Below, piece by piece: positions 51,001 through 54,000 of a DNA stretch of 64,000 bases. The stretch comes from an uncultured bacterium (GTDB taxonomy: Bacteria; Krumholzibacteriota; Krumholzibacteriia; LZORAL124-64-63). A program made the position numbers. The DNA lies in the NCBI GenBank assembly GCA_963732385.1, contig CAVSZB010000003.1, forward strand, positions 433,321 through 497,320, read 5' to 3'. The first letter of the stretch is position 1. Each line of letters begins with the position of its first letter.

Positions 51001-54000
51001 CGCCTGCCGGCTACCGGGCCGACGGCGCCCGCCCGACGCTGCTCTATGGTTACGGCGGCTTCGAGGTCTCGCAGCAGCCGGTCTACTCCGCCACGATCGG
51101 CGCGAACTGGCTGGCGCGCGACGGGGTCTACGTCCTGGCCAACATCCGCGGTGGCGGCGAGTTCGGACCGCGCTGGCACCAGGCCGCGCAGCAGAAGAAC
51201 CGCATCAAGTCGTTCGAGGATTTCATCGCCGTCGGCGAGGACCTGGTGGCGCGGGAAATCACGTCGCCGCCGCACCTTGGCATCATGGGCGGATCCCAGG
51301 GGGGCCTGCTCGTGGGTGGCGCCTTCACGATGCGGCCCGATCTCTTCGGCGCGGTCGTTTGCCAGGTGCCGCTGCTGGATATGCAGCGCTTCAACAAGCT
51401 GTTGGCTGGCGCCAGCTGGATGGCCGAGTACGGCGACCCCGACGTCCCCGAGGACTGGGAATTCATCCGGACCTGGTCGCCGTACCATCTCGTGCAGAAA
51501 GGTGTGAAGTATCCGAAGGTGTTCTTCTGGACCAACACGCGCGACGACCGCGTGCACCCCGGTCACGCCCGCAAGATGGTCGCACGCATGCTCGAGATGG
51601 GGCATCCGGTCTACTACTTTGAGAACATCGAGGGGGGGCACGGGTCGGGCTCGACGAACAGCCAGCGCGCCCGGATCCGCGCGCTCGAGTTCAGCTATTT
51701 GTGGAAGATGGTGCGCTGACCGCGCGTCGGCGCGGCGGGTGATCGGTCAGCCGGTCTCGCGGCGCTGTTCGGGCGGTGACAGCGGCGCCGCGCTCGATGA
51801 GGGGGCATCGGGCACCTCGGGCAGGAGTCGCTCCAGCTCCTCGCGGAGCGACTCCAGCCCCGCAAGGAATTCCTCCCGCCGCTCCGCGACGATTTCCGCC
51901 GCCACCTCGCGGTAGTGACGGATCCCCTCGAGCAGGTTCTGCTTCGTCTCGGTCGCCGAGCGGCCGGCCGCGCAGATCAGCTCCTGACGGCGGTTGCCGG
52001 CGACGGCGCGGGCCCGCTCCACGTGCAGCGACAGCTCCTTGAGGAACATGTGCGGACGGCCGGGGGCCAGCGGCAGCGCTGCCCGTCCGTAGATGTGGTC
52101 GACCATTTCGTGCAGACCCGCCACGCGGCTGAAGTAGGCCGTATTCGGACCGCAGCAGACGGCGGTGTTGGCGTGGGGGTCGATGCCGGTGGAGACCGTG
52201 GCGCCGCCGCCCAGATCGTGGCAGATGCACGCCTTCGTTACGACCGATTCCCACTGCGCGGCATTTTCGGCGTCGGGTTGAGCGGAGGCGGCGATCTCGC
52301 CGAGCTTGCGGCGCTGGTAGGCGCGGCTGGCGGTGCAGATCGGCGTCTTCGTGAACTCGGTGTTGCTGACGAGATAGCCCTTGGGACAGGGGCTGCCGGG
52401 GTTGCCCTCGTCGATGCGCGCGTGCCGCGCGATCTCGCTGGCCGACGTGCGCAGGTTCCAGAACGGCACGCCGAGCGGCGAGTTGTCGCTCAGGACCACA
52501 TCCTCCTCGCGCGCTTCGCTCACCTTCTTCAGGTGCTCGTCGTCGATGCTGACCACTTCGGGGCAGAGCAGGAACGGGCTCGCCCAGCCGGTGCCGTCCA
52601 CGGCGTAGTGCGAGCGCAGCATGGCGTCCTCGTCCGCGGTGCCGATGCCCCCCTGCACGGTGACGCGGCACGGGGCGGCTTCGGCCGGCGCGCGACCCAG
52701 TCTGGCGAGCGCGCGCTCGCGGATCTCCCCGAGTTCCTCGGTGAGCCGGAGCCGTTCCCGCCGGAACTCCGCCAGCACCGGCCCGAGCAGCTGCCCCTTG
52801 CCGCCGAAGGCGTGGCCGCCGCAATTCAGGCCCGATTCCACGCGGTACTCCGACACCCACAGCCCCAGCCGCGCCAGCAGGTTTCCCTGCAGGTGCGCCG
52901 AGCGGAAGTCGTTCACTTTCAGGATGATCCGCTTGCGGAGCTCGCCGGCGCTGTCGGGGAAGAAATCGTCGAACTCGCCCAGGTACGAGAACAGGCGCCG
53001 GTTCAGGCCGGCCGAAAGCACCACCGACGACCGCAGCCCGCTGCGGGCGTACCCGCGCAGGGCGCTCAGCGCGTCGGAGCCCTGGGGGACCGGCTCATCG
53101 CCGCGGTGGAAGCGGTCCTGGTCGAGCTTGGTCATGATGTTTACGTCGATGGCCCCGGGCGCGATCTCCTGCCGCAGCGTCGCCTGCAGGTCGATGCGCT
53201 CCCCGCCATCGTCGGTGCGCCGCATGCGTTCGTAGAGCGCGCGCAGTGGCGAGGCCGGCAGCAGTTCGAAGTAGCGGGTGATCTCGCTGCCTGCCTCGAA
53301 CACCGAGGCGCGCAGCCGCGCCATCTGCCGCGTCACCTGGCGGTCGAGCAGATCGAGATAGGCGGTGATGCGGCGGGCCCGCGCGTCGTCCTCGTGCTCC
53401 CCGATGGGCGTGAACTCCGCGCCCTCTTCCTCGCTGATCCTTCGGCGCATCTGTTCGATGAGCGCATCGTCCACCAGGGAGATCACCGAGGAGATCCCGA
53501 AGCGCGCCACCTTCAGCGGCGTGCCGAGCGTGAAACCGGTGCCCATGACCGGGATATGGAAGGTGTGGGCAGGACGAGCAAGCGCATGACTCATGACGGC
53601 TCCCCGGGGGCGCGGACGCAACGCCGGCGCACTGCGGCGCAAAGAATCGGAACAAGATAACCGGGAAATGCTGCCGGCACAATGGGGTAAGGGGCCGGGC
53701 CGGCTCCCGCCGCGCCGGGGACGAAAAGAGGGCGCCGCCGCTCCATGCGACGACGCCCCCGGAAGGTTCAGCTTCGGTGGCGCTGGGTTCCCCCGCTCGG
53801 GGCGATCCCGTGCAGCCACAGGCTGGAGAGGCCCCTCAACGCGGGGTCGCCACCTCCACTGAGCCGCATCTGTCCCAACTCACTGGATCACCTCCTCAGC
53901 GGGCGGACCCTCTTCGGCGAGACCCACCTCGCACGGCCCCCCGGCCGCCCTGGCCGCCGGAGCCGCCGCACCGCGGGGTGCGCGGCGAATGACCCCCACA

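What a model noticed while it worked through the whole genome (the two positions that open the first line are those of the whole stretch)
51747..53594. Very large, highly conserved cysteine-rich protein family (~593 aa) without any family model or solved relative
g00814 (615 aa, no predicted membrane helix) has no Pfam or NCBIfam row, yet thousands of proteins 42-67% identical to it over nearly their whole length exist in Planctomycetota, Omnitrophota, Zixibacteria, Desulfobacterota, Lentisphaerota, Verrucomicrobiota, Gemmatimonadota and cultured Bacteroidota (Pontibacter, Pedobacter); the alignment has well over 100 invariant positions, among them seven cysteines and the blocks IPVMGTGF, ESGLNCGGHAF and QGGIGT. 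Boldest reading: an unrecognised metal- or Fe-S-dependent housekeeping enzyme that escaped annotation because it always stands alone in the genome. New would be a whole enzyme family with cultured, tractable hosts in which to test it.
Evidence so far: No row in pfam/ncbifam/swissprot tables; Pfam at E<=5 only an apolipoprotein hit E 3.7. Homologues: 8000 of 8000 scored candidates at E<=1e-5; the 120 listed are 571-643 aa (one 425), 60-91% identical, named hypothetical, one weak PF25587. Alignment of 26: mean column identity 68%, invariant C258, C403, C420, C456, C458, C480, C481, H261, H500, H515, H524. Profile vs all PDB sequences: best E 0.0064, C-terminal 70 residues only. Genome scan: 596 of 600 pattern stretches encode a relative (row limit reached). 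Neighbourhood: in 48 loci of >=8 kb no neighbouring ORF family recurs in more than 6 loci. Hydropathy: no helix.
(Added by a program. Inside this text positions count along the whole contig: contig position 433,321 is position 1 of the stretch shown here. "Call 12" and the like, gene names such as g00115 and contig names such as C1 are that model's own, and its searches are not shown. The text may have been shortened before it was handed on; [...] marks where a part breaks off. The agent that wrote the report below was given it as the finding of a first reader that could run no searches.)

Follow-up and report, generated by a model that had tools for sequence, protein, structure and literature searches.

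The report
Low-oxygen FabX-like flavin iron-sulfur enzyme
This gene belongs to a large, almost unannotated bacterial family that is an enlarged relative of FabX, a flavin and iron-sulfur enzyme of fatty-acid synthesis; it probably acts on carrier-bound fatty acids when oxygen is scarce, possibly as a missing oxygen-independent route to unsaturated membrane lipids.

Summary
The ORF and the large conserved family are real. "No solved relative", "seven invariant cysteines", "housekeeping" and "always stands alone" are not. A confident model (pLDDT 94) is an FMN TIM barrel of the NMO/FabK/FabX superfamily, closest to Helicobacter FabX (Z 24.8, 336 of 363 residues aligned). The catalytic His, flavin contacts, basic ACP-binding helix and four cap cysteines (149 of 150 members) are kept. 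A predicted complex places ACP on that helix (0.64, best control 0.34; possibly from memory of FabX-ACP). The scan found this family three times before on other DNA. New here: all 12 long homologues found are fusions to an NADPH diflavin reductase (one clade). The gene is patchy and single-copy (24 of 81, 6 of 91, 53 of 151 genomes) and coexists with FabI, FabK or FabV. In Bacteroidota it tracks cbb3 oxidase, lies beside nos/nirK/ric/hemN/cco genes (15 of 52 loci) and often has an FNR-type box. Best reading: an acyl-ACP flavoenzyme for low oxygen, most likely making cis-unsaturated fatty acids without oxygen (about 0.45). Reaction and direction are untested. New variant of a known kind.

The parts
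51747..53594 (-). Gene for the 615-aa FabX-like FMN/[4Fe-4S] enzyme (P0001), single copy in the genome
53600..53605 (-). Ribosome-binding-site-like GGGGAG, 5 nt before the ATG
   Evidence: sequence
53541..53555 (-). IPVMG (residues 14-18), first-strand flavin loop; V16-M17-G18 read as FabX G23-M24-G25
   Evidence: mapped by eye
53157..53474 (-). Helical insertion of about 105 residues (41-146) with no counterpart in FabX; role unknown
   Evidence: DSSP of the model; inferred from FabX length and aligned range
52863..52910 (-). Helix 229-244, equivalent of the FabX ACP-binding helix: R231, L235, N238 (K/R in 129 of 150), R242, L243 (K/R in 113 of 150)
52812..52838 (-). ESGLNCGGH (253-261): E253 = FabX E175, C258 = S179, H261 = catalytic H182
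52572..52655 (-). QGG (314-316) and GTGWASPF (334-341): FMN-binding motifs matching FabX G220-G221 and Q240-T243
52083..52502 (-). Cap subdomain (about 365-504) with S372 (= FabX S273) and the candidate cluster ligands C403, C420, C456, C458; C480-G482 read as FabX F339-G341
   Evidence: ligand assignment inferred, no coordinates seen
51825..52049 (-). C-terminal helices (516-590); source of the apolipoprotein hits; residues 541-545 touch ACP weakly in the predicted complex

Best explanation
A soluble FMN + [4Fe-4S] enzyme of the FabX branch of the NMO/FabK superfamily that works on acyl-ACP when oxygen is low or absent, most likely introducing the cis double bond of unsaturated fatty acids without oxygen. 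Proposed cycle: ACP docks by its helix II on the basic helix 229-244; the acyl arm enters the barrel; H261 (held by S372) removes the alpha proton; FMN takes the hydride, or the enzyme takes trans-2-enoyl-ACP directly from FabZ; the trans-2 product is isomerised to cis-3-enoyl-ACP and elongated. The cluster links the flavin to an outside carrier (flavodoxin or ferredoxin type) in place of the O2 used by Helicobacter FabX. In the fused clade the NADPH-FAD-FMN module is that carrier and more plausibly reduces or primes the flavin than oxidises it. Computed here: fold, residue conservation, fusion, distribution, gene context, predicted ACP site. Inferred: FMN and cluster binding (about 0.85), acyl-ACP as substrate (about 0.7), low-oxygen expression, and the cis-unsaturated product.
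For: Fold: top structural match FabX, Z 24.8, rmsd 3.1, 336 of 363 residues, above FabK/PA1024 (Z 21-22) and IMPDH (Z<=16); the first Foldseek hits are nearly all acyl-carrier enoyl reductases or FabX. Profile-profile: FabX-like alignment probability 96.4, E 1.2e-9, 248 columns; FabK-like 24.6, E 8e-4 (5 sequences each). H261, E253, N152, S372, K226 are invariant in 150; all four cap cysteines in 149 of 150. Four of five FabX ACP-contact positions keep their type (K152, I156, K159, R164; R160 does not). Predicted complex of a Bacteroidota member with its own ACP: score 0.64, best of 3 controls 0.34; this mark was reached by 116 of 157 solved and 2 of 215 mismatched pairs; runs share at least 89% of contacts, partner pLDDT at least 86; ACP L38/V41/M45 sit on the residue equal to FabX I156. 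It coexists with FabK (own genome) and with FabI or FabV in 4 of 5 genomes tested, so it is not the routine enoyl reductase. Low-oxygen link in Bacteroidota: ccoN in 39 of 53 carriers versus 24 of 98 others; nos, nirK, ric, rrf2, hemN, cco or fixL-like genes in 12 of 40 and 3 of 12 loci; TGAY-N4-RTCA box upstream in 7 of 40 and 7 of 12 loci versus 22 of 479 other genes. Precedent: the gonococcal FabX homologue NGO1024 is induced 8-10 fold anaerobically (PMC3032703) and is described as essential for anaerobic unsaturated fatty acid synthesis with an unknown acceptor (PMC11300592). The own genome shows one FabZ-type domain, no desaturase and no FabX-like match.
Against: No biochemistry, genetics or lipid data. 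A FabX-ACP structure is solved, so the complex pass may come from memory and shows likeness only. No fab gene recurs beside it in 139 loci. Desaturases are not complementary: 39 of 53 carriers versus 39 of 98 non-carriers in Bacteroidota, 6 of 24 versus 24 of 57 in the own phylum (p 0.21). Many genomes have neither this family, a desaturase nor FabX. An NADPH diflavin module donates electrons (recalled), which fits a reductase better than a dehydrogenase. The low-oxygen context is not seen outside Bacteroidota (1 of 87 loci), the window's own gene has no box, 8 of the 12 clustered loci form one clade, and kin are not independent. The cysteine spacing (C-x16-C-x35-CxC) differs from FabX (Cx3Cx3Cx11C) and the profile alignment does not fix C420, C456, C458. 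About 250 extra residues have no explanation.
Confidence: 0.45

Rival explanations
1. A flavodoxin- or ferredoxin-driven reductase of enoyl- or dienoyl-ACP (FabK chemistry, NAD(P)H site replaced by the cluster): NADPH to FAD to FMN to [4Fe-4S] to FMN to substrate, like 2,4-dienoyl-CoA reductase in layout, serving a special lipid or backing up FabI/FabK at low oxygen.
For: All 12 long homologues carry a flavodoxin, FAD and NAD(P) module; the one fusion genome tested shows no sulfite-reductase haemoprotein domain. Most solved relatives are reductases (FabK, PfaD, FAS-I ER). ACP site as in the best explanation.
Against: The fusion has one origin. A canonical enoyl reductase is already present in the own genome and 4 of 5 others, and those need no oxygen, so a low-oxygen backup is hard to motivate. 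The closest relative, FabX, runs the other way.
Confidence: 0.2
2. A nitrosative-stress enzyme: it reduces or removes nitro or nitroso adducts (for example nitrated fatty acids) formed during denitrification, under an Rrf2 repressor together with the cluster-repair protein Ric.
For: rrf2 genes in 6 and ric in 6 of 40 Bacteroidota loci, often directly upstream on the same strand; nirK in 4. The superfamily includes nitronate monooxygenases.
Against: nosZ co-occurrence is weak (24 of 53 versus 26 of 98; no difference among desaturase-positive genomes). hemN and cco, which answer to oxygen rather than NO, are in the same clusters. Nitronate monooxygenases score lower (Z 16-18.5). A conserved ACP-type helix is not expected.
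Confidence: 0.12
3. An oxygen-independent replacement for an oxygen-requiring step in another pathway (for example making or tailoring an acyl-ACP precursor of biotin or another cofactor), in the way HemN replaces HemF.
For: Sits between thiC and bioB in about ten Omnitrophota-like loci; shares operons with hemN in Bacteroidota.
Against: The bioB/thiC arrangement is confined to one part of the tree and the gene lies on the opposite strand; it is absent from the 40 Bacteroidota and 17 own-phylum loci.
Confidence: 0.13
4. One reading: a stand-alone housekeeping metalloenzyme of unknown fold, with seven cysteines as metal ligands.
For: High conservation, single copy, no Pfam or NCBIfam model.
Against: Known fold; patchy distribution; C481 not conserved, C258 and C480 at flavin-contact positions.
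Confidence: 0.02

Closest known systems
FabX (HP0773) of Helicobacter pylori, decanoyl-ACP dehydrogenase/isomerase, PDB 7e1q/9lt5; homologue NGO1024 (UfaA, name recalled) of Neisseria gonorrhoeae
   Same: FMN barrel plus cap topology (Z 24.8, 336 of 363 aligned), catalytic His with its Ser partner, flavin-contact Asn/Glu/Gly, basic ACP helix, four cap cysteines, microaerobic or anaerobic setting
   Different: 16% identity; about 600 versus 363 residues with large helical insertions and a C-terminal helical extension; different cysteine spacing; Q240 replaced by Gly, M241 by Trp, R160 by a hydrophobic residue; fused to a diflavin reductase in one clade; reaction untested
FabK enoyl-ACP reductase II (PF03060; PDB 5gvh, 7l00, 4iql, 9pl0)
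   Same: Same barrel and catalytic His; Z 21-22
   Different: FabK has an NAD(P)H site and no cluster; weaker profile match; the own genome has two separate FabK-like genes
PfaD and trans-AT PKS enoyl reductases, fungal and mycobacterial FAS-I ER domains (4yx6, 4z9r, 4cw5, 4v8l)
   Same: Enlarged FabK-type barrels acting on ACP-bound chains; best Foldseek E-value 1.6e-10
   Different: Lower Z (15-20); no Fe-S cap; no PKS or pfa genes beside the family
Nitronate monooxygenases and PA1024 NADH:quinone reductase (4q4k, 5lsm, 2gjl, 6e2a)
   Same: Same superfamily; the names that a few members carry in databases
   Different: No four-cysteine cap; Z 16-21; small-molecule substrates
CysJ-type NADPH diflavin reductases (TIGR01931)
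   Same: C-terminal 540 residues of the 12 fused proteins score 563 bits (cut-off 668)
   Different: Here attached to a flavin/Fe-S barrel; no sulfite-reductase haemoprotein domain found in the one fusion genome tested

Membership tests
NMO/FabK/FabX superfamily (PF03060) | (beta/alpha)8 barrel with FabK-type cap | tested here: met
   Model pLDDT 94, pTM 0.93; Z 21-25 to FabX and FabK
NMO/FabK/FabX superfamily (PF03060) | E-x(5-6)-GGH motif with catalytic His, GG(I) and G-x-G/A-T flavin motifs | tested here: met
   E253, G260, H261 150 of 150; G315 149, G316 148, G336 149; aligned to FabX-like profile
NMO/FabK/FabX superfamily (PF03060) | Pfam PF03060 score over the gathering cut-off | tested here: not met
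   P0001 has no hit; 1 of 28 relatives passes (P0272, 31.5 bits), one more is below the cut-off
NMO/FabK/FabX superfamily (PF03060) | Non-covalent FMN bound | not testable with these tools
   Contact residues are conserved; ligands were not scored
FabX | Four-cysteine [4Fe-4S] cap with spacing Cx3Cx3Cx11C | tested here: not met
   Four conserved cap cysteines are present (149 of 150) but spaced C-x16-C-x35-CxC; only C403 aligns firmly
FabX | ACP-binding helix 7 with K152, I156, K159, R160, R164 | tested here: met
   Four of five positions keep their type; predicted ACP site coincides, 0.64 versus best control 0.34
FabX | Full-length sequence similarity to HP0773 (known homologues 36-51% identical) | tested here: not met
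   16% in structural alignment, about 250 extra residues; figures for homologues
FabX | Decanoyl-ACP dehydrogenase/isomerase activity | not testable with these tools
   No assay possible
FabK | NAD(P)H-binding cap without cluster; sole or main enoyl-ACP reductase | tested here: not met
   Cysteine-bearing cap; FabK, FabI or FabV present separately in the own genome and 4 of 5 others
IMPDH/GMP reductase | Best structural match and GxGxGSxCxT catalytic loop (motif recalled) | tested here: not met
   Z 12-16 against 24.8 for FabX; loop is ESGLNCGGH with invariant His

The most novel reading that the evidence does not exclude
This is the unrecognised oxygen-independent route to unsaturated fatty acids across Bacteroidota, PVC, Desulfobacterota and candidate phyla: a FabX-like enzyme wired through its cluster to flavodoxin (fused to an NADPH diflavin reductase in one clade), switched on with hemN, cbb3 oxidase and N2O reductase when desaturases stop for lack of oxygen. 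It would point to the unknown electron partner of anaerobic FabX-type enzymes and could account for monounsaturated lipids of anoxic sediments.
Probability: 0.3. Interest if true: 0.85.

Novelty: new variant of a known kind. Interest (0 to 1): 0.58.

Why it matters
How bacteria without FabA make unsaturated fatty acids in the absence of oxygen is only partly known, and the electron acceptor of the anaerobic FabX homologue NGO1024 is described as unknown (PMC11300592). This family has thousands of members, occurs in about a third of the Bacteroidota genomes sampled, including cultured Flavobacterium, Pedobacter and Pontibacter, and is nearly always labelled hypothetical. The natural fusion to a diflavin reductase gives a self-contained enzyme for assay, and the link to cbb3/nos/hemN clusters names the condition under which a knockout should show a phenotype. 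It is not a new fold or a new class of chemistry, and the scan has met the family before.

Tried and rejected
Sequence profiles against PDB gave only apolipoprotein helices from the C-terminal 70-90 residues, a composition artefact. The Atlas search with P0001 gave only unnamed clusters. 'Replacement enoyl reductase' rejected as the general role; 0 of 6 carriers and 13 of 85 non-carriers in the phylum of G005 had a full-length PF03060 gene, too few to mean anything. Complementarity with desaturases or FabX not found. bioB/thiC link judged lineage synteny. Single fusions to an acyltransferase (P0129) and TetR (P0124) were given little weight because the same library holds apparent chimeras (P0212, P0223, P0243); TetR is also directly upstream in 2 of 79 loci. 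IMPDH-like catalysis by C258 rejected on Z-scores and the invariant His. Metatranscriptome contigs of 90-95% identical relatives cover most of the gene in 2 studies but do not show transcription. The first tree run did not finish; a FastTree tree of 131 rows was used. In one search two of 40 upstream windows (L146, L163) were misplaced; corrected, neither has the box. A global hhalign run against the FabK-like alignment failed. Nine paper searches showed no paper on this family; the library lacks most subscription papers and no supplements were read. PMC12927429 (passages) was not informative.
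Full report
Observation. The window holds an intact 615-codon ORF at 51747-53594 on the minus strand, with a GGGGAG site 5 nt before the ATG; it ends 28 nt from a convergent prolyl oligopeptidase gene. It is single-copy in the genome. Pfam and NCBIfam give nothing (E 3.7, E 0.14). The family is large: 8000 of 8000 scored candidates, 596 of 600 genome stretches, 1119 clusters at 50% identity, many fragments. Conservation was overstated: 131 invariant columns among 119 close relatives fall to 14 among 150 diverse ones; C481, H515 and H524 are not conserved (61, 114 and 32 of 150).

Fold. An AlphaFold2 model from the 150-sequence alignment has pLDDT 94.0 and pTM 0.93. Foldseek ranks PfaD, FabX, trans-AT PKS enoyl reductases and FabK first (E 1.6e-10 to about 5e-7). 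VIA-align puts Helicobacter FabX on top both among Foldseek's 1000 chains and among 48161 representatives: Z 24.8, rmsd 3.1, 336 of 363 residues, 16% identity; FabK and PA1024 score 21-22, nitronate monooxygenases 16-18.5, IMPDH up to 16. Sequence agrees: the family profile matches an alignment of five FabX-like proteins (one checked against FabX at E 4e-72) with probability 96.4, E 1.2e-9, and five FabK-like proteins at 24.6, E 8e-4. Two of 28 relatives scanned hit Pfam NMO, one over the cut-off. Two of 10 clusters looked up carry an NMO-type source name, none of 10, and an Atlas cluster of 166, mostly Fibrobacterota, is named NMO domain-containing (score 0.92). So the superfamily link exists in scattered automatic names, but no curated model covers the family.

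Anatomy. Using the FabX residues listed in PMC8626469 (sections 8 and 9 read) and the alignment printed, mapped partly by eye: N152 = N99, E253 = E175, C258 = S179, H261 = catalytic H182, G316 = G221, S372 = S273, C480-G482 = F339-G341. C258 and C480 are thus flavin-contact positions. C403, C420, C456 and C458 lie in the cap and occur together in 149 of 150 members. C403 aligns with the first FabX ligand; hhalign places C420 on the last ligand whereas spacing favours C456, so the ligand set is inferred. The helix after strand 5 keeps the FabX ACP contacts: K152 = R231 (K/R 146 of 150), I156 = 235 (I, V or L in 132), K159 = 238 (129), R164 = 243 (113); R160 is not kept; P0001 itself has Asn and Leu at 238 and 243. 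A predicted complex of the Rapidithrix member with its own ACP, with FMN and cluster riding along unscored, gave 0.64 against a best control of 0.34; this mark was reached by 116 of 157 solved and 2 of 215 mismatched pairs; runs shared at least 89% of contacts and partner pLDDT was at least 86. ACP residues 36-45 and 57 touch residues equal to P0001 196-203 and 231-239, as in FabX-ACP. Because that complex is solved, the pass shows likeness and not binding.

Fusions. Among 8000 candidates of 1078-3075 residues, 12 were homologues and all 12 carry flavodoxin, FAD and NAD(P) domains, a CysJ-like module (563 bits, cut-off 668). They are 54-89% identical; the five placed in the tree form one clade among Omnitrophota rows, so this is one event. 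The one fusion genome tested, an incomplete bin, shows no sulfite-reductase haemoprotein domain, while 2 of 2 sister genomes do. Such modules pass electrons from NADPH to a partner (recalled), so the cluster communicates with a flavodoxin, and in this clade more plausibly receives electrons. Single fusions to an acyltransferase and to TetR were seen but carry little weight.

Distribution. Found in 24 of 81 genomes of the own phylum (19 of 27 others in the own family), 6 of 91 in the phylum of G005, one of them partial, and 53 of 151 in Bacteroidota, always one match. It is not housekeeping. The own genome has two FabK-like genes; of 5 carriers tested, 2 have FabI, 2 FabV and 1 none found. The own genome shows one FabZ-type domain, no desaturase, no FabX-like match at E<=1e-25 and no ccoN.

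Context. In 79 named loci the recurring neighbours are BioB (12), ThiC (11), TrxB-like (10) and a 2-oxoacid oxidoreductase (7), all on the opposite strand and in Omnitrophota-like rows: local synteny. No fab gene recurs. In Bacteroidota a different pattern appears. I fetched 16-kb regions for 40 of the 53 carriers; 12 hold nosZ, nosD, nirK, ric, rrf2, hemN or ccoN, as do 3 of 12 named Bacteroidota loci, against 1 of 87 other loci (the queries came from these loci and representatives were named by NCBIfam). In Pedobacter albus the gene runs directly into a FixL-like kinase, a response regulator with a CRP/FixK-like domain and hemN. Eight of the 12 form one clade (one member named Gracilimonas); the other four sit at four separate places in the tree. 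Where both genes are present, nosZ is within 11 kb in 9 of 24 genomes. ccoN over its cut-off is in 39 of 53 carriers and 24 of 98 others, and 30 of 39 versus 18 of 39 among desaturase-positive genomes; nosZ is 24 of 53 versus 26 of 98 and shows no difference in that subset (kin are not independent). A TGAY-N4-RTCA palindrome, FNR-like by recall, lies 64-70 nt upstream in 7 of 40 loci (shuffles: mean 0.37, maximum 3 in 300; pattern chosen after viewing these loci), and in 7 of 12 named Bacteroidota loci versus 1 of 67 other upstream regions, an independent set. Other genes in these loci have it in 22 of 479 wider windows, among them ccoN and ric. The window's own gene lacks it.

Reading. Fold, active site and ACP surface point to an acyl-ACP flavoenzyme with a cluster; context points to low oxygen. 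The precedent is NGO1024, a FabX homologue induced 9.6 and 7.9 fold anaerobically (PMC3032703, passages) and described as essential for anaerobic unsaturated fatty acid synthesis with an unknown acceptor (PMC11300592, passages; the primary paper was not read). FabX isomerisation needs no oxygen (PMC8626469, passages). I therefore favour oxygen-independent cis-unsaturation (0.45). Against it: desaturases co-occur rather than exclude in Bacteroidota (39 of 53 versus 39 of 98), as expected for facultative organisms but not discriminating; the trend in the own phylum is weak (6 of 24 versus 24 of 57, p 0.21); the diflavin fusion suits reduction; and 250 extra residues are unexplained. A flavodoxin-driven reductase (0.2), a replacement step in cofactor synthesis (0.13) and a nitrosative-stress enzyme (0.12) remain open.

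Novelty. It works like FabX in architecture but fails FabX membership on cysteine spacing, size and identity: a new family within a known superfamily. Nine searches of the paper library showed no paper on it; supplements of transcriptome or fitness papers, not read, may list members as hypothetical. Three earlier notes of this scan reached the FabX-like reading on other genomes; I had it before the look-up. One of them, on an Rrf2 operator, led me to test the low-oxygen link. Word searches of the scan found no note on the fusion or the nos/hemN context.

Noticed in passing
window 40826-43303 (+): NuoD-like and NuoB/Fe-S-like subunits of a group-4 hydrogenase-like or related membrane complex, all below NCBIfam cut-offs.
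   Followed up: partly
window 44034-45320 (-): 428-aa protein with an N-terminal helix-turn-helix-like part and C-terminal 4Fe-4S motifs; no NCBIfam hit at 1e-15.
   Followed up: partly
window 54157-54855 (+): 232-aa ORF with a signal-like N-terminus and a basic tail, divergent from the studied gene, no Pfam hit at E<=10.
   Followed up: no
window 56144-57223 (-): ORF that reads like an IS5-type transposase (by eye, not scanned).
   Followed up: no
window 57888-63352 (+): Three secreted-looking proteins ending in a PNPFNP C-terminal domain; in 60649-62433 that domain appears in another frame (61895-62239), suggesting a frameshift.
   Followed up: no
L023:2160-3950 and 4137-5921: Tandem pair of the family, the only duplication seen in 79 loci.
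   Followed up: partly
L175:9283-10497, L148:8923-10164, L180:14734-15999 and others: A membrane protein of about 410 aa with no NCBIfam hit recurs near the gene in 6 of 40 Bacteroidota loci, within nos clusters.
   Followed up: partly
L183:5544-6611 (G099): A membrane fatty-acid desaturase in the fusion-bearing Omnitrophota bin, which shows no haem-copper oxidase.
   Followed up: partly
L027:5385-5978, L044:5401-5967, P0124: TetR gene a few bases upstream on the same strand in two loci, and one TetR read-through fusion.
   Followed up: partly
P0212, P0223, P0243, P0268: Library proteins joining part of the family to unrelated domains (SusC, TOPRIM, UxaC); probably assembly chimeras.
   Followed up: partly
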